DNA from: a virus
Taxonomy: Duplodnaviria; Caudoviricetes
DNA length: 64,000 bases
IMG/VR virus record: IMGVR_UViG_3300011337_000669
Reading direction: 5' to 3' (one strand)
This document shows positions 1,086-52,325 of this stretch, in pieces (the first letter of the stretch is position 1; each line of letters starts with the position of its first letter). The notes beneath the pieces were generated by a model, which did no database searches, was not told where the DNA came from, and worked only from the letters and a program-made list of their open reading frames with translations. The translations under genes and the position numbers were made by a program.

Positions 1086-1157
1086 TGGACCCGGGGAATC
1101 ATGATATCCCGACCTTCGCTTTATGAGAGCGCTGCTCTTCCTCTGAGCTACGGGTCC
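1086..1157 (-). tRNA. tRNA with CAT anticodon (Met or Ile2), atypical T loop
   Basis: GGACCCG/CGGGTCC acceptor, GCTC/GAGC D stem, CTCATAA loop; T arm GGGAT-ATCATGA-TTCCC lacks TTC. Confidence 0.8.
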
Positions 1158-1835: not shown

Positions 1836-2507
1836 ATGAACATCGGACAAGAATTTCAAAACTATTACGTAAATCACTTGGGTAAAGGGTCATTGGACCT
1901 TTACAACTTCTCAAATCAAATTCAATCATCAATGACTCCATATATTCTTGAAGAAAGAGAAATGAGAGTAACTCAAATGGATATTTTCTCAAGATTACTT
2001 CGTGATCGTATATTATGGGCAGCAGGTCCCGTAGACGATAGAATGTCCACAGTTGTCCAAGCACAACTCATGTTTCTTGATAATACTGATAAATCAGATA
2101 TCACAATTCATTTGGATAGTGGTGGTGGAAGCATAAAATCGGGATTAAGTATGATTGATGTTATGAATTATATCAAATGTGATGTTAGAACAATTAATGT
2201 TGGTATGTGCGCATCTATGGGGGCAGTATTACTAGGAGCAGGAACAAAGGGGAAGAGAAGTTCTCTCAAATTTTCGAGAACTATGATACATCAGTCATCA
2301 TCAGGGTTTCAAGGAACTTACGCAGACGCAAAGGTAAATTTCGAAGAATGGACTAAAATTAACGATACAATCTTCAATTTGTTGGGAGAATATTGTGGAA
2401 AGTCGTCAGACCAAATAAAAATTGATGCCGACAGAGATTTATGGTTCTCATCACAGGAAACTCTAGATTACGGATTAATTGATGAAATTGTGACAAAAAG
2501 AAAATAA
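1836..2507 (+). CDS. clpP: ATP-dependent Clp protease proteolytic subunit
   Basis: MDIFSRLLRDRI, GMCASMG (Ser), MIHQ (His), DRDLW (Asp) catalytic triad context. Confidence 0.95.
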   Translation: MNIGQEFQNYYVNHLGKGSLDLYNFSNQIQSSMTPYILEEREMRVTQMDIFSRLLRDRILWAAGPVDDRMSTVVQAQLMFLDNTDKSDITIHLDSGGGSIKSGLSMIDVMNYIKCDVRTINVGMCASMGAVLLGAGTKGKRSSLKFSRTMIHQSSSGFQGTYADAKVNFEEWTKINDTIFNLLGEYCGKSSDQIKIDADRDLWFSSQETLDYGLIDEIVTKRK

Positions 2508-20308: not shown

Positions 20309-20440
20309 ATGAAAATATTTGAAGTTTACGGACAAATTTATATCTTGCCTTTTGTTAAAGTAACCCATACAAGAGACCTTAACGGTGATTTAGAACTAAT
20401 TATTGGTTGGTTAAAATGGGGATTAATAATAAAATTATGA
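20309..20440 (+). CDS. 43-aa hypothetical protein
   Basis: Manual translation MKIFEVYGQIYILPFVKVTH...; ATGA overlap with next gene. Confidence 0.55.
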   Translation: MKIFEVYGQIYILPFVKVTHTRDLNGDLELIIGWLKWGLIIKL

Positions 20441-21114
20441 AAAAAATTGTCTTTATAAGCGATACACACAATAAACACAAACACCTTACAAGTAAGGGGA
20501 TGGGAAACATATTGGGTAGTGGTGATTACCTGATCCACGCAGGAGACTGCACAAGTATGGGGTCCAAAAACGAAATTACTCAGTTTTTGGAGTGGTTTTC
20601 AAATACTGATTTCAAACATAAAATTTTCATTGCTGGAAATCACGATTTTGGATTTGAACAACAAACTGATATTGCTCAAGAATACAAAGACATGGGAGTA
20701 ATCTATTTGTTTGACAATGAGGTTACCATCGATGGAATCAAATTTTATGGAAGTCCTTGGCAACCAGAGTTCCATAATTGGGCGTTCAACCTACCAAGAG
20801 GCGAAGAATTAGCACAAAAATGGGAACAAATTCCAAACGATGTTGATGTGTTAATAACACACGGACCAGCATATGGTATTTTGGATTATGCTCCAATAGG
20901 TGGTCATGTTGGTTGTGAAGAACTATATCGCAAAATTGTGGAGGTAAAACCAAAGATCCACGTTTGTGGTCACATCCACGATGGTTATGGACAAAAAACG
21001 ATGGGTGGAATCGAGTTCCTAAATGCGTCTGTACTCAACGATAGATATGAACATGCTCACAAACCAATTGTTGTTGAATACGATACTGAAACAAAAGAAA
21101 TTAATTATATCTAA
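20437..21114 (+). CDS. metallophosphoesterase (MPPED-like)
   Basis: SDTH, HAGD, AGNHD, THGP, CGHIH. Confidence 0.9.
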   Translation: MKKIVFISDTHNKHKHLTSKGMGNILGSGDYLIHAGDCTSMGSKNEITQFLEWFSNTDFKHKIFIAGNHDFGFEQQTDIAQEYKDMGVIYLFDNEVTIDGIKFYGSPWQPEFHNWAFNLPRGEELAQKWEQIPNDVDVLITHGPAYGILDYAPIGGHVGCEELYRKIVEVKPKIHVCGHIHDGYGQKTMGGIEFLNASVLNDRYEHAHKPIVVEYDTETKEINYI

Positions 21115-21116
21115 AA

Positions 21117-21593
21117 ATGAAAAAAATGTATCAGGTCTATCTCGATGACATTCGTACGCCAATTGAAAATGATTGGGAAATTGCAAGAGATTATGACCAA
21201 TTCGTAGAAGTAGTCCAAAGATTGGGATTAGATAATATTGGAGTGATTTCATTGGATCACGACTTAGGTGAAAGTGCAATGATTGAATATTATAATAACG
21301 TAAAAGATAACTATAAACTTGAATACGATAACATAGAAGAAAAAACTGGTTATGATTGTTGTAAATTTTTAGTTAATCTTAGTATGGATAGTGGTATTCC
21401 ATTGCCATCAATTTACGTTCATTCGGCAAATCCAATTGGAAGTCATAATATGATGGGTTACATTAACAATTATTTAAAGAATTGTAAACTAACTCAAAAC
21501 TGTGTTAGAAATGAAATACCCCATAAAATAGAGGAGGTCTTTATGTTGAGTCCAGAAGCGAGAGAAGCGAAATGGAAAAGAATTAAAAATTAA
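21117..21593 (+). CDS. cyclic-phosphate-processing receiver-like domain protein
   Basis: YLDDIRTP, ISLDHDLG, TGYD, HSANP motif set. Confidence 0.75.
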   Translation: MKKMYQVYLDDIRTPIENDWEIARDYDQFVEVVQRLGLDNIGVISLDHDLGESAMIEYYNNVKDNYKLEYDNIEEKTGYDCCKFLVNLSMDSGIPLPSIYVHSANPIGSHNMMGYINNYLKNCKLTQNCVRNEIPHKIEEVFMLSPEAREAKWKRIKN

Positions 21594-21915: not shown

Positions 21916-22167
21916 TTACTCTTCTGTTGAGTCTTCTTTACCTTTGTTAATCCATTTGTCGATTGACCCGATTCCAAAGGAACCAAGAACTAACCATAAG
22001 AAGGCATTAAAGATGAATTCGTTTATCACTAGGTCTTTACCTAAAGATCCGGTTACAATATCCGCAATAGCGAATCCTGTCATCATTACAAACGCCATAA
22101 ACCCTACGACGCTTTTTTCATTGATTGTGTTGTTGTCATTGAACAACTGAGATAAGAATTTTTTCAT
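21916..22167 (-). CDS. small two-TM membrane protein (holin candidate)
   Basis: Two hydrophobic helices; TATTTAT at 22192-22198. Confidence 0.65.
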   Translation of the reverse strand: MKKFLSQLFNDNNTINEKSVVGFMAFVMMTGFAIADIVTGSLGKDLVINEFIFNAFLWLVLGSFGIGSIDKWINKGKEDSTEE

Positions 22168-22202
22168 AGTATTTTGGCAATTTACTTACCAATAAATATA
22201 AC

Positions 22203-22231
22203 AAAAAAAGGGAGACACCGTCGTGTCTCCC
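22203..22231 (-). terminator. intrinsic terminator closing the tRNA-like transcript
   Basis: GGGAGACAC/GTGTCTCCC 9-bp stem followed by T tract on - strand. Confidence 0.8.
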
Positions 22232-22498
22232 AATTTTCTCCGTCGAGAAAACATAGTGTGTCTTTTTGGATTGGGCTGATCACAAACCCCAAGGATGGAT
22301 GGTCCTTTGTTTTATTTATCGTCTCAAAACATCCAATAGTGACGTGTTTAATTTTATCTTTTTCAAGGTTAAGATAAAGGAAACAAAGACTTAAAACCTC
22401 CCATACCTGATTCTACGTTTTTCTAATTTATAAAGCGGAGAAGAAATTGTTAAGGTGAGTATGGGAAAACACCATTATAAAATATTCCGCTATCCATT

Positions 22499-22593
22499 TG
22501 GTGGTAAGAGTTCGATTCGAACGAACGGCTCACGGATTTCACTCCGCTGCTCTACCAATGTGAACTCAAGATTCACAACTGAGCTATCTTACC
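22499..22593 (-). tRNA. aberrant tRNA-Phe(GAA)-like gene with 20-nt D-loop insertion and 6-nt anticodon loop
   Basis: GGTAAGA/TCTTACC acceptor plus A-CCA encoded; GCTC/GAGC D stem; GCGGA-GTGAAA-TCCGT; GTTCG-TTCGAAT-CGAAC T arm. Confidence 0.8.
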
Positions 22594-22655
22594 ATATTGT
22601 TTCTCGGGGTTTGGAACCGAGTATCTTTCATCACCTGTAAGTCCCAAACCCTTTA

Positions 22656-22687
22656 CAAATATATAAAATTGTTTTCGGACTGTCAAA
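22656..22687 (-). promoter_or_regulatory. Bacteroidota-type promoter for the tRNA-like RNA
   Basis: TTTG (22684-22687), 20-nt spacer, TATATTTG (22656-22663). Confidence 0.7.
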
Positions 22688-22822
22688 CTATTTATGAAAA
22701 AAAGCCTCCCCGTAATGGGGCGTTTAGGACCGTTCCAGTTATGGGACAATTTAAGAGAACGATTCGCTACCGTTCTCTTTTTTTTATTATTTCTTTATAA
22801 TATATTTATAATAAAAAAGAAT

Positions 22823-22957
22823 ATGGCAAAAGGTACAAAAGGGGGTTCATCTCCATCTCGTAAAATTTCTTTTGGTAAAAAAAGAACAGGTGTGGCTAAA
22901 AAAGGTTATTCCAAATACGAACAAAAACCTAAACGATACGCTGGTCAAGGTAGGTAA
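22823..22957 (+). CDS. 44-aa highly basic protein
   Basis: MAKGTKGGSSPSRKISFGKKRTGVAKKGYSKYEQKPKRYAGQGR; TATTTAT at 22803-22809. Confidence 0.7.
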   Translation: MAKGTKGGSSPSRKISFGKKRTGVAKKGYSKYEQKPKRYAGQGR

Positions 22958-22995
22958 CTCAAGACTTTTTTTATTTTTTTTAATATATTCTCATC

Positions 22996-23286
22996 ATGTC
23001 GGATAAGAAACGTAGATTCTATCGCCTTTTGGAAACGTATATGAATGAGTCTCGGAAGGAAGATGTTGAACTTATGTATGGTAAAGATGCAAAAATCAAA
23101 GTTCATAATTGGACTCATAATGAGAAGGGAGACCAATTCATATTTGAACTAATTGTTGTGTTGGGAAATACAATTAATGAATCCGTTATGGACACAAACC
23201 TCGCAGAAGTATTATTGGAGGATGCATTACAATTTTTTTATCCTGAGGTGAAAAAAATATGTTATATGACGAGATTCGATGTCTAA
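22996..23286 (+). CDS. hypothetical protein
   Basis: ORF track. Confidence 0.7.
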   Translation: MSDKKRRFYRLLETYMNESRKEDVELMYGKDAKIKVHNWTHNEKGDQFIFELIVVLGNTINESVMDTNLAEVLLEDALQFFYPEVKKICYMTRFDV

Positions 23287-42333: not shown

Positions 42334-43431
42334 TTAATATTCAAAATTTAATATTTCGTTCACGGTAATATTGGTGCTATTAAAATAATCTTGGAAGGAT
42401 ATATGTCCCCCGACCATCATTTCATATAGTTCCTTAATCATTTCCTTATTTTCATGAGTAATCACCATAACGTGATTTTCAAACAAGTATGAATCATTAT
42501 TCTCAATCAAAGCAAATTTCATATTTTTTGATATTACCCGTGGCATAACAATACAATCTTTTACTTTGGATATTTCATCAGAAACAATATATTGTTTTTT
42601 TCCCGGAATCTTGCTTCTAAGTTTACCGCCAATTTTGATTTCATTATCTCCAATATTATTTGAATATAACAATATTTTTTGGGAAGAATCATCGGTCAAT
42701 TTTTCTTTCACATTATACCACAGAATATCCCCAATTTTGCATACAAAACCTTTTTCCTTTAAGGTCATGCCATTTGAAACATTTTTGGTCAATGTATAAT
42801 AATTATTTTTCAAACTTATGAATGAATGACCCTCATCGAACTTTTTTTGCAATATCAAAAGACAAACATCGATGGAGACATCTTTGAATGGAATCTGATG
42901 GATAATATCCACAACGGCATATTCATCATAGATTTTTTTCCGAATGTCATTATACCAAGGACTTGATAAAATGGTTGAAGGCAAAAGATACGCCAACACC
43001 CCACCGTCCTTTAACAACTCAAAAGATTTGTCCATAAACAAATGAACCAAATTAATTCTCCCCCTCTTTTCAAAATTAAATCGTTCACGTAATTTACTCT
43101 TTTCATCTTCATCATAATAAGAATAAACCAATTCAATATATGGAGGATTTCCAATAATAAAATCATATTGTTTATCAAAATCAGTTAAAAGAAAATCACC
43201 CAATAAACAATTGGCACCATCAATAGGTGAGAACACCTCAGGGTCAATCTCAAAACAATCAATACTTAAATCGGATTTTTTTAATTCAGACACAAAATTC
43301 CCCGAACCAAAACTTGGCTCCAAAACCCATCCCGATAAATCAAATCTTTTTCTTAATTCTTCAATAGTGAAATTACACTCATTCACGTCAGTATTAAACT
43401 GACCATACTTAGCTCTTTTTGACTTTCCCAT
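42334..43431 (-). CDS. N6-adenine DNA methyltransferase (gamma class, TaqI/Eco57I-like)
   Basis: GQFNT, LEPSFGSGNF (motif I), IIGNPPY (motif IV), LKDGGVLAYLLP. Confidence 0.92.
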   Translation of the reverse strand: MGKSKRAKYGQFNTDVNECNFTIEELRKRFDLSGWVLEPSFGSGNFVSELKKSDLSIDCFEIDPEVFSPIDGANCLLGDFLLTDFDKQYDFIIGNPPYIELVYSYYDEDEKSKLRERFNFEKRGRINLVHLFMDKSFELLKDGGVLAYLLPSTILSSPWYNDIRKKIYDEYAVVDIIHQIPFKDVSIDVCLLILQKKFDEGHSFISLKNNYYTLTKNVSNGMTLKEKGFVCKIGDILWYNVKEKLTDDSSQKILLYSNNIGDNEIKIGGKLRSKIPGKKQYIVSDEISKVKDCIVMPRVISKNMKFALIENNDSYLFENHVMVITHENKEMIKELYEMMVGGHISFQDYFNSTNITVNEILNFEY

Positions 43432-43488
43432 ACAGTTATAAATATAATTCATTTATCGTGGAAAATAAAATAATTAGACACAAATATC

Positions 43489-50749: not shown

Positions 50750-51679
50750 CTACCCAACATATTTTTTAGCACCACGTGTATATAACGTCACAAACTTCTC
50801 TAACAATTCCTTGTCACTATTTATTAAATTACGAAGTCCGTCTTCTAATTCATTCATCTGTGGAACATGGGTATCAGCATAATCCATAGGTATTACACTT
50901 ACAATCCCCGAGTATATCGCTCTATCTAAGTATGTTTGAAAGTCAGGCATGAATGATGGCATGTACCAATCTGCAGCTAGAATAACTGCATCGATAAGTT
51001 CGGGCATTCTTCTTTTGAGATATGGATTTACTGATTCATCTATCTTTAGTTTGTTTCTCTTTTCGTAGATGGACTTCATCTTCTTTAACAATGTTTCATT
51101 ACTAAGTATGAGTTTTTTCATCATGTCTTCCAAATACTCCAACTTTGTGGTATCAGAATCAAAATAATCTTCAGGTAGTTCAGTTACAATTCCCGAATAT
51201 ATCGATTGTTCCAAAAATGTATCAAAAGTCATGGTGTGCTTGTTGGGATTATAGTATGACGCCGATTCAAAAACCGAATCAATCAATTCAGGTAATCTCC
51301 TTCTAATAGATATTGGAGAATCCCCTTCATTCATTATTTCTAAATCGAGTTTACTAATGAAGATTTGTTTTAGTGTCTGAAGTAATTCCTTATCATTGTT
51401 GATTGTTTTTAATAAGACTTTTTCAATTTCACCTAACTCTTCGCTGGTCAAATCATAATCTTCAATAACATTTCTTATTGAATAAAATATTGTCCTATCT
51501 AAGAAATTCTTGAAATAATTCTCATCGAATTCTCTGTCACTTCTAACAAATATTTCGTTAGCGGTATCAACAACTGCATTAAGAAACTCAGGAAGTCTCC
51601 TTCTTAAATAAGGATTAAGAAAACCTTCATTAATCCCCATGACCTCCTTGATTCTATCTATGTCTTCTTGTAAATTCAT
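50750..51679 (-). CDS. leader (MNLQEDIDRIKEVMGINE) plus three tandem KRR modules
   Basis: YLRRRLPEF, SIRRRLPEL, YLKRRMPEL each preceded by a (I/M)(N/D)E site. Confidence 0.85.
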   Translation of the reverse strand: MNLQEDIDRIKEVMGINEGFLNPYLRRRLPEFLNAVVDTANEIFVRSDREFDENYFKNFLDRTIFYSIRNVIEDYDLTSEELGEIEKVLLKTINNDKELLQTLKQIFISKLDLEIMNEGDSPISIRRRLPELIDSVFESASYYNPNKHTMTFDTFLEQSIYSGIVTELPEDYFDSDTTKLEYLEDMMKKLILSNETLLKKMKSIYEKRNKLKIDESVNPYLKRRMPELIDAVILAADWYMPSFMPDFQTYLDRAIYSGIVSVIPMDYADTHVPQMNELEDGLRNLINSDKELLEKFVTLYTRGAKKYVG

Positions 51680-51683
51680 TTGG

Positions 51684-52325
51684 TTAAATGTTGGAGATAT
51701 AGTGATCGTAAATCTCATCGTATATTGAATGATTCTTTACTAACTCCATTATCTTTGGCTCTAGCACTTCACTTATTTTTAACTGTTCTTCGTGTTCCCC
51801 TCCTATTTCATCGGCAACAAAATCTCTTGTTGCTGAGAATATAACCCTTTCTAAAAAATCATCGAAGTTGTTGAATCTACGTGGTGATAACCAGTCATAT
51901 GAAGCTTCGATATAATCAAGTAAAGCATCCATTCTTCTTTTAACAAGAAGTAATTCTTTAGATTCATTTATGTCTTCAGATTCATCTCTTGTTGGATACT
52001 TTTTCGAATCGTAATGTTCTTTGATTTTTCTGAATAACCTTTTATCGTTACGTAATGATACAAAGGCAAATGGGAGTAACTCCTCTATTTCATCTCTTTT
52101 CACAAGAATATCATTAAATTCGAAGAAACCATCTATTGAATGTCTCAATACTAACTTAAGATAGTCTTCAAAACTATCTATGTCTTCTATGAATTCATCC
52201 ATCCACTCGAAAGAAGTAAGGAGAACATCAAGAAATTCATCTTGTCTTCTCTTAAAAAACATATCACGGCTTTCGTTAATCCCCATGACTTCCTTAATCC
52301 TATTTATGTCTTCACGCAAATTCAT
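51684..52325 (-). CDS. leader (MNLREDINRIKEVMGINE) plus two tandem KRR modules
   Basis: FFKRRQDEF, LVKRRMDAL; TATTTAT at 52330-52336. Confidence 0.85.
   Translation of the reverse strand: MNLREDINRIKEVMGINESRDMFFKRRQDEFLDVLLTSFEWMDEFIEDIDSFEDYLKLVLRHSIDGFFEFNDILVKRDEIEELLPFAFVSLRNDKRLFRKIKEHYDSKKYPTRDESEDINESKELLLVKRRMDALLDYIEASYDWLSPRRFNNFDDFLERVIFSATRDFVADEIGGEHEEQLKISEVLEPKIMELVKNHSIYDEIYDHYISNI

What the first reader, a model, noticed from the sequence alone, without database searches (positions are those of the whole stretch)
22499..22593. tRNA-Phe-like RNA with a 20-nt hairpin in the D loop and a 6-nt anticodon loop
Seen: perfect acceptor stem with encoded CCA (the only such tRNA here), perfect T arm and its own promoter. 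The normal AGTTGGTA D loop is interrupted by 20 nt (22559-22578) forming TGTGAA/TTCACA and flanked by a TTG direct repeat. The anticodon loop is GTGAAA, one base short, with G at position 32. Established: D-loop introns are known in some archaea but not typical of bacteria; phage tRNAs can counter anticodon nucleases. Inference: intact stems argue for a maintained non-decoding role (decoy, aminoacyl donor, or substrate for the phage RNA ligase) rather than random decay.
Basis: partly seen in the sequence, partly recalled or inferred. Interest (0 to 1): 0.7.

Follow-up and report, generated by a model that had tools for sequence, protein, structure and literature searches.

The report
Five-armed phage tRNA-Phe look-alike
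This is a real, conserved gene of giant freshwater phages for a tRNA-shaped RNA that keeps the marks of phenylalanine tRNA but has an extra hairpin arm in its D loop and an off-size anticodon loop. It probably imitates tRNA-Phe rather than reading codons, and no paper I could search describes it.

Summary
On the minus strand, 22593..22499 is a 95-nt cloverleaf with a 7-bp acceptor stem, A73 and an encoded CCA. It has a normal D stem and T arm, a 7-bp hairpin in place of D-loop nucleotides 16/17, and a 6-nt anticodon loop GUGAAA.

It is not decay or an assembly error. A second phage contig carries the identical 541-nt locus. About 55 distinct relatives in uncultured jumbo-phage contigs keep the same five-arm design with different hairpin sequences and compensatory changes in the variable stems (95-97% of pair cells paired; slid controls 36-53%).

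GAA and A73 are kept while the anticodon loop is 6, 7 or 8 nt. Four phage lineages also carry a normal tRNA-Phe. Cellular genomes lack the design.

Depending on the clade, the gene sits in a tRNA array, just upstream of GOLLD RNA, or, as here, just upstream of a 270-nt structured RNA.

My best reading (about 40%) is a non-decoding tRNA-Phe mimic that here also serves as the processing module for the downstream RNA. A working "armoured" tRNA-Phe is the main rival.

This scan had already noted D-loop-armed tRNAs on other DNA. I found no description in the searched literature.

The parts
22656..22686 (-). Promoter: TTGACA (22686-22681), 17-nt spacer, TATATTTG (22663-22656). It fits sigma-70 in 11 of 12 positions and also the Bacteroidota -7 motif TAnnTTTG.
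   Evidence: sequence. It is preceded by a minus-strand terminator-like hairpin with a T run at about 22725-22700. The Bacteroidota reading of the motif rests on my own knowledge.
22607..22651 (-). Leader hairpin (GGGTTTGG ... CCAAACCC) between the promoter and the tRNA-like RNA.
   Evidence: It is about 98% conserved in L046-L049. In L051/L052 it is followed by a separate promoter for the tRNA-like gene.
22499..22593 (-). The 95-nt five-armed tRNA-Phe-like RNA: acceptor 22593-22587 / 22509-22503, A73 at 22502, CCA at 22501-22499.
   Evidence: Family alignment; covariation.
22559..22577 (-). Extra arm in the D loop: stem 22577-22571 with 22565-22559, loop 22570-22566. It replaces nucleotides 16/17, between A14-G15 (22580-22579) and G18-G19 (22556-22555).
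   Evidence: Relatives have 35 different stems at the same place, often capped by UUCG, GNRA or UUUA loops.
22532..22547 (-). Anticodon arm: 5-bp stem and 6-nt loop GUGAAA (22542-22537), with GAA at 22540-22538.
   Evidence: The same 6-nt loop occurs in L096, L083, L151, L060 and L156.
22510..22526 (-). Canonical T arm (5-bp stem, loop TTCGAAT).
22232..22498 (-). Co-transcribed 270-nt structured non-coding RNA ('trailer'), the constant downstream neighbour of this tRNA-like gene in its clade.
   Evidence: nhmmer places it 1-121 nt downstream, on the same strand, in the 22 clade-1 members including the window. Metatranscriptome contigs of 4 studies cover 22240-22490. No ORF of at least 40 codons lies on its strand, and the short reading frame is not conserved in relatives.
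22203..22231 (-). Intrinsic terminator (9-bp GC-rich stem plus T run) ending the roughly 450-nt transcription unit.

Best explanation
The gene belongs to a conserved, phage-specific family of tRNA-Phe derivatives with five arms: a normal cloverleaf plus a stable hairpin that replaces D-loop nucleotides 16/17.

Shown: the RNA-level structure is under selection. The Phe marks G34-A35-A36 and A73 are kept. The anticodon loop is free to be 6, 7 or 8 nt. The family coexists with ordinary tRNA-Phe genes.

Shown for this phage: the gene has its own promoter and is the first part of a unit of about 450 nt that ends at a terminator. That unit also holds a 270-nt structured RNA, which is seen as a discrete RNA in metatranscriptomes.

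Inferred: the transcript is cut by the tRNA-processing enzymes (RNase P, and RNase Z or RNase E). This releases both a 95-nt L-shaped RNA with a protruding arm and the downstream RNA.

Inferred: proteins that read the tRNA-Phe anticodon and discriminator (PheRS, or an anticodon-directed host nuclease or other tRNA-Phe binder) recognise the tRNA-like RNA. The off-size anticodon loop, and perhaps the extra arm, keep it out of normal decoding. It would therefore act as a mimic, meaning a decoy, sink or regulator, rather than as an adaptor.
For: 1. Family and selection. Syntenic relatives found through a flanking protein and a pattern scan of IMG/VR give 64 true D-loop-insert tRNAs, of which 57 carry GAA. 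I estimate that fewer than 1 hit is expected by chance.
2. In two clade alignments, 95.6% and 97.3% of pair cells are standard pairs, against 36-53% when partners are slid. There are 11 and 9 pairs with changes on both sides, and 0 of 500 shuffles reach the observed values.
3. The extra arm is 99% and 88% paired, with 2 and 3 covarying pairs within clades and unrelated sequences between clades. There are 35 different stems. G-U pairs are common in the stems, which suits an RNA read from this strand.
4. The locus is 100% identical between two phages whose flanks are 94.65% identical.
5. Loop length varies among close relatives: 6, 7 and 8 nt in clade 1 and 8 nt in all 23 clade-2 members, mostly with C33. 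GAA never changes.
6. A canonical tRNA-Phe is present as well in G003, L073, L080 and L120.
7. The design is absent from 185,579 cellular genomes apart from one contig, L282, and from cultured phages by BLASTN.
8. Transcription unit: promoter and terminator. In relatives the downstream RNA has its own promoter, whereas here it starts 1 nt after the CCA with no promoter.
9. The phage lives with RNA-damage pressure: a calcineurin-type phosphoesterase and a cyclic-phosphate-processing cREC protein lie 0.9-2 kb away.
10. Precedent: phage tRNAs change anticodon loops to escape host tRNA nucleases (PMC10264068, PMC11555353), and a Bacteroidetes Cas12a3 cuts tRNAs (PMC12851939).
Against: No experiment or read data show that the RNA accumulates, is charged, or stays off the ribosome. 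No binding partner is identified, and no tRNA-Phe-specific nuclease is known for the presumed Bacteroidota hosts. Array-borne members (clade 3) have perfectly canonical 7-nt loops and could be ordinary decoders, so the non-decoding state may be derived only in some clades. The closest complete relative genome (G001) has no other tRNA-Phe. The extra arm is capped by generic stable tetraloops, so it offers no specific protein-binding motif, and its role remains a guess. The pattern I scanned with fixed the D stem, A14, G15, G18, G19 and part of the T loop. Their invariance among pattern hits is therefore by construction; only the 7 syntenic relatives speak independently on those positions.
Confidence: 0.4

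Rival explanations
1. It is a working, 'armoured' tRNA-Phe. The fifth arm leaves decoding intact but stops a host tRNA-targeting nuclease, or helps a phage factor tell phage tRNA from host tRNA.
For: Clade-3 members sit inside tRNA arrays between tRNA-Leu and tRNA-Tyr and have canonical loops (CUGAAAA, GUGAAAA, UUGAAAC). G001, the closest complete genome, has no other tRNA-Phe. The same phages carry class-I tRNAs (Thr, Asn, Ile, Met, Cys, Trp) with an added variable arm and normal anticodon loops, so adding an arm to a tRNA seems a general habit there.
Against: The window's loop has 6 nt. Close relatives differ by loop insertions and deletions. C37 occurs in 10 of 21 clade-1 members and C33 in 18 of 23 clade-2 members. 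Clade 1 has a bulged nucleotide in the acceptor stem. Four lineages keep a normal tRNA-Phe beside it.
Confidence: 0.2
2. It is mainly a processing and stabilising module. The tRNA shape only recruits RNase P and RNase Z to give the neighbouring large RNA (the 270-nt RNA here, GOLLD in clade 2) a defined end, as tRNA-like elements do for other long RNAs.
For: It is directly followed on the same strand by the 270-nt RNA in every clade-1 locus and by GOLLD in every clade-2 locus with enough flank. Here the two share one promoter and one terminator. The literature reports tRNAs next to or inside GOLLD (PMC12286853, PMC6582537).
Against: Clade-3 and other members lie in tRNA arrays with no such RNA downstream. 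In G004 GOLLD has no tRNA next to it. In many clade-1 relatives the tRNA-like gene has its own terminator and the 270-nt RNA its own promoter. Processing alone does not explain the invariant GAA and A73, nor the fifth arm.
Confidence: 0.15
3. It is charged with phenylalanine and serves as an aminoacyl donor for a non-ribosomal transferase, as dedicated tRNA-Gly species do for Fem enzymes.
For: GAA and A73, the main PheRS identity elements (established knowledge), are invariant, while features needed only for decoding drift. The arm is placed in the D loop rather than in the variable loop used for other tRNAs of these phages, and the variable loop contributes to Phe identity in E. coli (inference).
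Against: No Leu/Phe-transferase, FemAB or PheRS gene was found in the five related phage records searched, three of them CheckV-complete. No conserved enzyme-like neighbour was found among 699 flanking ORFs.
Confidence: 0.1
4. The 20-nt hairpin is a mini-intron that is cut out and the halves rejoined, perhaps by the phage RNA ligase, to give a normal D loop.
For: Archaeal tRNA-Asn genes found by the same pattern carry D-loop introns at this position.
Against: There is no bulge-helix-bulge motif; the unpaired nucleotides face each other across the base of the hairpin. Related complete phage genomes have no splicing endonuclease and no RtcB. The insert is far too small for a group I intron, and Rfam finds no intron match. 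Removal would still leave a 6-nt anticodon loop. Stable UUCG and GNRA caps suggest a permanent structural arm.
Confidence: 0.07
5. It is a decaying tRNA pseudogene, an insertion scar or an assembly error.
For: tRNA finders reject it. The insert is flanked by a TTG repeat in this one sequence.
Against: There are compensatory changes in the variable stems across about 55 relatives. The sequence is identical in an independent contig and in several DNA studies. It has its own strong promoter. The TTG repeat is absent in relatives.
Confidence: 0.03

Closest known systems
Canonical bacterial or phage tRNA-Phe(GAA), Rfam RF00005
   Same: 7-bp acceptor stem, A73, 4-bp D stem with A14, G15, G18, G19, a 5-nt variable loop ending in C48, a canonical T arm, and GAA in the anticodon loop. 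It was evidently derived from tRNA-Phe; in G003 a normal tRNA-Phe lies about 110 nt upstream of the armed copy.
   Different: A 5-7-bp hairpin replaces D-loop nucleotides 16/17. The anticodon loop is 6 nt here (6-8 nt in the family), often with C33 or C37. Most of clade 1 has a bulge in the acceptor stem. The window's copy is below the detection threshold of ARAGORN and Rfam. Other members are miscalled tRNA-Thr, tRNA-Pro or undetermined.
Archaeal tRNAs with non-canonical introns in the D loop (for example Nitrososphaerales and Woesearchaeota tRNA-Asn)
   Same: Extra nucleotides at the same place in the gene; my genome scan recovered them with the same pattern.
   Different: Those are removed through a bulge-helix-bulge motif by the archaeal splicing endonuclease. 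Here there is no such motif and no such enzyme, the context is phage and bacterial host, and the insert has stable tetraloop caps and covarying stems, as expected for a permanent arm.
Phage tRNAs with altered anticodon loops that escape host tRNA nucleases (van den Berg et al. 2023, PMC10264068; Azam et al. 2024, PMC11555353)
   Same: Phage-encoded; diverges from the host-type anticodon loop while keeping the anticodon; coexists with RNA-repair genes.
   Different: Those keep a 7-nt loop and a four-arm cloverleaf and still decode. Here the loop length itself changes and a fifth arm is added. No cognate nuclease is known.
tRNAs and pseudo-tRNAs adjoining or embedded in GOLLD RNA (Weinberg et al. 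2009; Kretsch et al. 2025, PMC12286853; PMC6582537)
   Same: In clade 2 the armed tRNA lies 0.5-1 kb upstream of the conserved GOLLD 3' domain on the same strand (Rfam 288-320 bits). In the window's clade a different 270-nt structured RNA takes that place.
   Different: The papers I could read mention ordinary tRNAs (for example tRNA-Met) or an unexpressed pseudo-tRNA, not a D-loop arm or off-size loops. The window and its closest complete relative have no GOLLD.
tRNA mimics: bacterial Y RNA-like YrlA, and the phage T4/T5 'tRNA-like stable RNAs'
   Same: tRNA-shaped RNAs that do not decode and have poorly known function. A YrlA-like element (sub-threshold, 30-41 bits) lies directly upstream of the armed tRNA in clade 2.
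   Different: YrlA is a permuted partial tRNA domain on a Ro-binding stem, without an anticodon arm or CCA. This RNA is a complete cloverleaf with acceptor end and anticodon-type arm. The related phage genomes encode no Ro/TROVE protein.
Class II tRNAs and allo-tRNAs (an extra arm in the variable region; review PMC7609411)
   Same: A fifth helical arm protruding from the tRNA core while the L-shape is kept.
   Different: The arm is in the D loop, not the variable region. The review of non-canonical tRNAs that I searched lists no D-loop arm and no phage case.

Membership tests
Canonical elongator tRNA (RF00005), tRNA-Phe | Cloverleaf with a 7-bp acceptor stem, a 5-bp T stem and the T loop TTCRANN | tested here: met
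   kept with compensatory changes in relatives.
Canonical elongator tRNA (RF00005), tRNA-Phe | Unstructured D loop of about 7-11 nt | tested here: not met
   28 nt lie between the D-stem strands, including a 7-bp hairpin.
Canonical elongator tRNA (RF00005), tRNA-Phe | 7-nt anticodon loop with U33 and a purine at 37 | tested here: not met
   The 6-nt loop GUGAAA. The family has 6-8 nt, with C33 or C37 in many members.
Canonical elongator tRNA (RF00005), tRNA-Phe | Reaches Rfam's gathering score or is called by ARAGORN | tested here: not met
   A partial 18.2-bit match against a threshold of 29, and no ARAGORN call. Other family members score 34-50 bits.
Canonical elongator tRNA (RF00005), tRNA-Phe | Phe identity set: G34, A35, A36 and A73 | tested here: met
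   GAA occurs in 57 of 64 D-loop-insert tRNAs, and A73 in all 55 rows of the family alignment.
Canonical elongator tRNA (RF00005), tRNA-Phe | Aminoacylation and codon reading on the ribosome | not testable with these tools
   Needs charging and translation assays.
Archaeal-type spliced tRNA intron in the D loop | Bulge-helix-bulge motif at the exon-intron junctions | tested here: not met
   By inspection: the hairpin rises directly from the D loop with 1-3 unpaired nt on the 5' side and 2-3 nt plus GGUA on the 3' side. There are no two staggered 3-nt bulges around a 4-bp helix.
Archaeal-type spliced tRNA intron in the D loop | Splicing endonuclease (tRNA_int_endo) and RtcB-type ligase available | tested here: not met
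   Neither family was found in 5 related phage records, 3 of them complete. The host genome is unknown.
Group I intron in a tRNA gene | Catalytic core of about 200 nt or more, usually in the anticodon loop | tested here: not met
   The insert is 20 nt and lies in the D loop. Rfam gives no intron match at E up to 10.
GOLLD-associated tRNA | A GOLLD RNA (RF02032) adjacent on the same strand | tested here: not met
   There is no GOLLD in the window or in G001. The feature is met only in clade-2 relatives.
Y RNA-like (YrlA, RF02553) | Match to the YrlA model; a permuted tRNA-like domain on a Ro-binding stem | tested here: not met
   No match in 22000-23100 at E up to 10. No TROVE protein in related phages.
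tmRNA tRNA-like domain | G3-U70 alanine identity, no anticodon arm, tag reading frame | tested here: not met
   Pair 3-70 is U-A, a full anticodon arm is present, and ARAGORN calls no tmRNA.
Five-armed D-loop-hairpin tRNA-Phe family (defined in this report) | Stable hairpin between G15 and G18, GAA in a 6-8-nt loop, A73-C74, phage genome | tested here: met

The most novel reading that the evidence does not exclude
The five-armed tRNA-Phe look-alikes are a new functional class of tRNA. They would be charged or bound like tRNA-Phe but barred from decoding, and they would work together with the giant phage RNAs beside them (GOLLD, or the abundant 270-nt RNA here), for example as the cargo, tether or assembly cofactor of the RNA cage. 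That would give the first functional handle on GOLLD-type RNAs. A still bolder variant is not excluded: the 6-nt and 8-nt loops could make them dedicated frameshift-promoting tRNAs at Phe codons.
Probability: 0.12. Interest if true: 0.88.

Novelty: new variant of a known kind. Interest (0 to 1): 0.72.

Why it matters
tRNA architecture is among the most conserved in biology, and the extra arms described so far lie in the variable region. A conserved fifth arm in the D loop, combined with an anticodon loop whose length is free to change while the anticodon letters are frozen, points to selection for being recognised as tRNA-Phe without decoding.

Possible roles include a decoy, regulator or donor role in the conflict between giant phages and their hosts. 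If the array-borne members do decode, the design shows that the ribosome tolerates a D-loop arm.

The family is invisible to, or mislabelled by, standard tRNA finders, so phage tRNA inventories are biased. Its steady position next to GOLLD, or next to a new 270-nt RNA found in metatranscriptomes of four studies, offers a testable lead on large phage RNAs whose function is still unknown.

Tried and rejected
- **Cultured phages:** BLASTN of the locus and of two other family members against 50,697 phage records gave nothing relevant, only a partial hit to an ordinary Streptomyces-phage tRNA-Phe.
- **No genome for the window:** none is held.
- **RNA runs:** contigs of four metatranscriptomes cover only 22240-22490. 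The tRNA-like part had no cover, which says nothing about its expression. No joint lacking the hairpin was seen, but contigs cannot show that.
- **Linkage to RNA-repair genes:** the cREC gene at 21117-21593 has 44 relatives in IMG/VR, but only the near-identical contig has the armed tRNA within 6 kb. I dropped it as a partner.
- **Neighbour-protein clustering:** 699 ORFs within 4 kb showed no universal partner. SmpB appears only in clade 2.
- **Enzyme families:** TROVE, Leu_Phe_trans, PheRS core, FemAB, tRNA splicing endonuclease and RtcB are all absent from five related phage records.
- **Target-site-duplication idea for the TTG repeat:** rejected, because relatives lack it.
- **DNA-level palindrome:** G-U pairs are common in the stems, which suits an RNA read from this strand better than a DNA-level palindrome.
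- **RNase III substrate:** the stems of 4-7 bp are too short (my own knowledge).
- **Shuffle test on hairpin length alone:** weak, with a mean of 5.6 bp against 4.0 bp. I therefore relied on covariation.
- **Alignments not used for some counts:** A6 was out of register for three rows and was not counted. The whole-family alignment A3 is out of register in the hairpin and the acceptor stem.
- **ARAGORN 'tRNA-Tyr, 83 nt' calls in G002 and G003:** I first suspected these were armed tRNAs, but they are real tRNA-Tyr.
- **Literature:** the 2009 GOLLD paper (PMC4140389) is not held.
- **Rfam on the 270-nt RNA:** no family matches.

Full report
**What is there.** On the minus strand, 22593..22499 reads as a 95-nt cloverleaf.
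- Acceptor GGTAAGA pairs perfectly with TCTTACC, followed by A73 and an encoded CCA.
- U8-A9 and a D stem GCUC/GAGC follow.
- A 5-bp anticodon stem carries the 6-nt loop GUGAAA.
- The variable loop has 5 nt, and the T arm is textbook.
They form a 7-bp stem (the last pair is U-G) with a 5-nt loop.

RNAfold recovers the acceptor, extra hairpin, anticodon and T helices at -30.7 kcal/mol, z = -3.2. ARAGORN does not call the gene, and Rfam's tRNA model gives only a partial 18-bit match.

A promoter TTGACA-17-TATATTTG lies at 22686-22656, and an intrinsic terminator at 22231-22210. The unit is therefore about 450 nt: a conserved leader hairpin, the tRNA-like RNA, and a 270-nt ORF-free trailer. The three ordinary tRNAs of the window lack an encoded CCA.

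**The sequence is real.** No genome is held for the window. Its genes (thymidylate synthase, ClpP, homing endonucleases, cell-wall hydrolases) and its relatives show a jumbo phage of about 300-360 kb from fresh water.

Twelve DNA runs of three studies hold every sampled word of the stretch, though some may be the source. An IMG/VR contig of another phage (94.65% identity over 7.5 kb of flank; flanking proteins 83-96% identical) carries the 541-nt RNA locus without a single change.

**It is a family under selection.** Relatives found through a flanking protein (L046-L053) have an RNA at the same spot whose stems differ from the window's at many positions but stay paired. Each has a D-loop hairpin of unrelated sequence.

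A pattern demanding only the D stem, a gap of 12-30 nt, and part of the T loop found 105 stretches in IMG/VR. I estimate that fewer than one hit is expected by chance. They collapse to 67 distinct sequences. Three are truncated-tRNA artefacts, and 57 of the 64 true cases carry GAA.

In clade alignments, 95.6% (23 sequences) and 97.3% (15 sequences) of pair cells are standard pairs, against 36-53% when the partners are slid. Eleven and nine pairs change on both sides, and no shuffle out of 500 reaches the observed values.

The extra arm is 99% and 88% paired, with covarying pairs. Across the family there are 35 different stems of 4-7 bp, usually capped by UUCG, GNRA or UUUA, always 0-3 nt after G15 and 2-3 nt before G18. 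G-U pairs are common in the stems, which suits an RNA read from this strand.

One caveat applies. The pattern fixed U8, the D stem, A14, G15, G18-A21, A26 and G53-A58, so among pattern hits their constancy is by construction. Only the seven syntenic relatives show it independently.

**What varies and what does not.** GAA, A73 and C74 are constant (C74 is also encoded in the ordinary tRNAs of these phages that I read). The loop around GAA is not:
- Clade 1 (acceptor GGUUGNGG, with one bulged nucleotide) has arms of 15-18 nt, with loops of 6, 7 or 8 nt and often C37.
- Clade 2 (GGUAUUR) always has 8 nt (or a 6-bp stem with a 6-nt loop), and 18 of its 23 members have C33.
- Clade 3 (GGUGURR, with a 6-bp arm and a 6-9-nt arm loop) has canonical 7-nt loops.

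The window's copy shares its acceptor and anticodon stems with an array-type member (L143) and its hairpin with a clade-1 member (L152). This suggests that modules are exchanged.

**Context.**
- Clade 3 and several singletons lie inside large tRNA arrays, between tRNA-Leu(UAG) and tRNA-Tyr. The same arrays also hold a canonical tRNA-Phe (L073, L080, L120).
- In the 362-kb genome G003 a canonical tRNA-Phe lies about 110 nt upstream of the armed one.
- Clade 2 is always flanked by a YrlA-like element directly upstream (sub-threshold, 30-41 bits). The GOLLD 3' domain lies 0.5-1 kb downstream on the same strand (288-320 bits), with SmpB and tmRNA nearby.
- Clade 1, including the window, is always followed within 1-121 nt by the 270-nt RNA. 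One clade-2 phage (L053/L054) has that RNA instead of GOLLD.
- G001, the closest complete genome, has no GOLLD.
- In a clade-3 phage GOLLD stands alone, so the partnership is frequent but not obligatory.
- In L051 and L052 the tRNA-like gene has its own terminator and the 270-nt RNA its own Bacteroidota-type promoter. In the window's lineage the two are fused into one unit.
- Metatranscriptome contigs of four studies match 22240-22490 as whole short contigs.

**Distribution.** The same pattern in one genome for each of 185,579 prokaryote species returned two things: duplicated 5' tRNA fragments of integration sites, and archaeal tRNA-Asn genes with D-loop introns. Only one contig (L282) had the phage design. 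Cultured phages gave no match.

**Mechanism.** Decay, insertion scar and artefact are excluded by the covariation.

An intron is unlikely. There is no bulge-helix-bulge motif, related genomes have no splicing endonuclease or RtcB, the insert has stable caps, and removal would not repair the anticodon loop.

Processing alone does not explain the frozen GAA and A73, nor the array-borne members. A donor role lacks any recognisable transferase.

Two readings remain:
- A non-decoding mimic of tRNA-Phe, which I favour for this clade. The loop length drifts among close relatives while the anticodon letters do not, and normal tRNA-Phe genes coexist with it.
- An armoured but working tRNA-Phe, which is plausible for clade 3.

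The same phages add a variable-region arm to tRNAs for Thr, Asn, Ile, Met, Cys and Trp, often next to an unarmed copy, so adding an arm is a general theme. That Phe alone gets its arm in the D loop would fit a need to spare the variable loop, which contributes to Phe identity in E. coli (established knowledge; the link is my inference).

Host tRNA-targeting immunity, including a Bacteroidetes Cas12a3, and phage tRNA escape variants are documented (PMC10264068, PMC11555353, PMC12851939, PMC13056530). A phosphoesterase and a cREC cyclic-phosphate-processing gene lie next door. An arms-race setting is therefore credible, but it is not shown for this RNA.

**Comparison with the literature.** A review of non-canonical tRNAs lists no D-loop arm. 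Papers on GOLLD mention neighbouring or embedded tRNAs and a pseudo-tRNA, but not this architecture. Full-text searches for D-loop insertions or extra stem-loops in phage tRNAs found nothing.

Earlier notes of this scan had already seen D-loop-armed tRNAs on other DNA: a tRNA-Glu type in soil bacteria and phages, and a Caulobacter-phage mimic with two D-loop hairpins. They also noted other tRNA look-alikes in this same phage. I did not check those notes. If they hold, a D-loop arm is a recurrent and so far undescribed design.

**Verdict.** The RNA is a new variant of a known kind (tRNA and tRNA mimic).

Noticed in passing
window 22232-22498 (-): The 270-nt ORF-free RNA after the tRNA-like gene is conserved in more than 40 loci, always just downstream of clade-1 armed tRNAs. 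Whole short contigs in metatranscriptomes of four studies match it. GOLLD takes its place in clade 2. It matches no Rfam family.
   Followed up: partly
window 22607-22651 (-): A conserved leader hairpin lies between the promoter and the tRNA-like RNA. In L051 and L052 it is followed by a second promoter, so it may be a separate small RNA or a regulatory element.
   Followed up: no
L188-L190 (G003), L195 (G002): Class-I tRNAs (Thr, Asn, Ile, Met, Cys, Trp) of 80-89 nt carry an added variable-region hairpin and normal anticodon loops, often right beside an ordinary copy of the same tRNA.
   Followed up: partly
L094 5101-5197, L106 6011-6106, L062 2265-2371, L053 10052-10154: A Y RNA-like (YrlA) element, below Rfam's threshold, lies directly upstream of every clade-2 armed tRNA. 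The related phage genomes encode no Ro/TROVE protein.
   Followed up: partly
L094 3561-4139 (-), L094 2625-3038 (+), L127 9465-9859: Phage-encoded SmpB (Pfam E = 1e-45) and tmRNA lie within 1-3 kb of GOLLD and the armed tRNA, forming an island of translation-related RNAs.
   Followed up: partly
window 20407-21114 (+), 21117-21593 (+): A calcineurin-type phosphoesterase and a cREC 'cyclic-phosphate processing receiver' protein look like an RNA-end-healing pair. They lie 0.9 kb from the tRNA-like gene but are not linked to it in relatives.
   Followed up: partly
L111, L112; L082, L088, L136, L138; L113: Other phage tRNAs have D-loop inserts but other anticodons: CAU with a GC-rich hairpin, CGA with a 23-24-nt insert, and one with a 7-bp anticodon stem.
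   Followed up: no
L205, L215, L238, L240, L263, L267 and others; L282: Archaeal (Nitrososphaerales, Woesearchaeota) tRNA-Asn genes have D-loop introns at the same position. L282 is the single genome-collection contig with a phage-type armed tRNA-Phe.
   Followed up: no
window 1086-1157 (-); L195 9506-9578 (-); L198 (G001 168681-168801): Odd tRNAs: a tRNA-Met with an unusual long T loop, a tRNA-Phe(GAA) with a non-canonical T loop that ARAGORN misses, and a 121-nt tRNA with a large insert.
   Followed up: no
window 22499-22593 compared with L143 and L152: The window's RNA looks like a mosaic. Its acceptor and anticodon stems are identical to those of the array-type member L143, its D-loop hairpin is nearly that of the clade-1 member L152, and its flanks are those of clade 1.
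   Followed up: partly
window 50750-51718 (-), 42334-43452 (-), 1836-2507 (+): Terpene-synthase-like ORF, Eco57I-type DNA methylase and ClpP protease in the phage genome.
   Followed up: no
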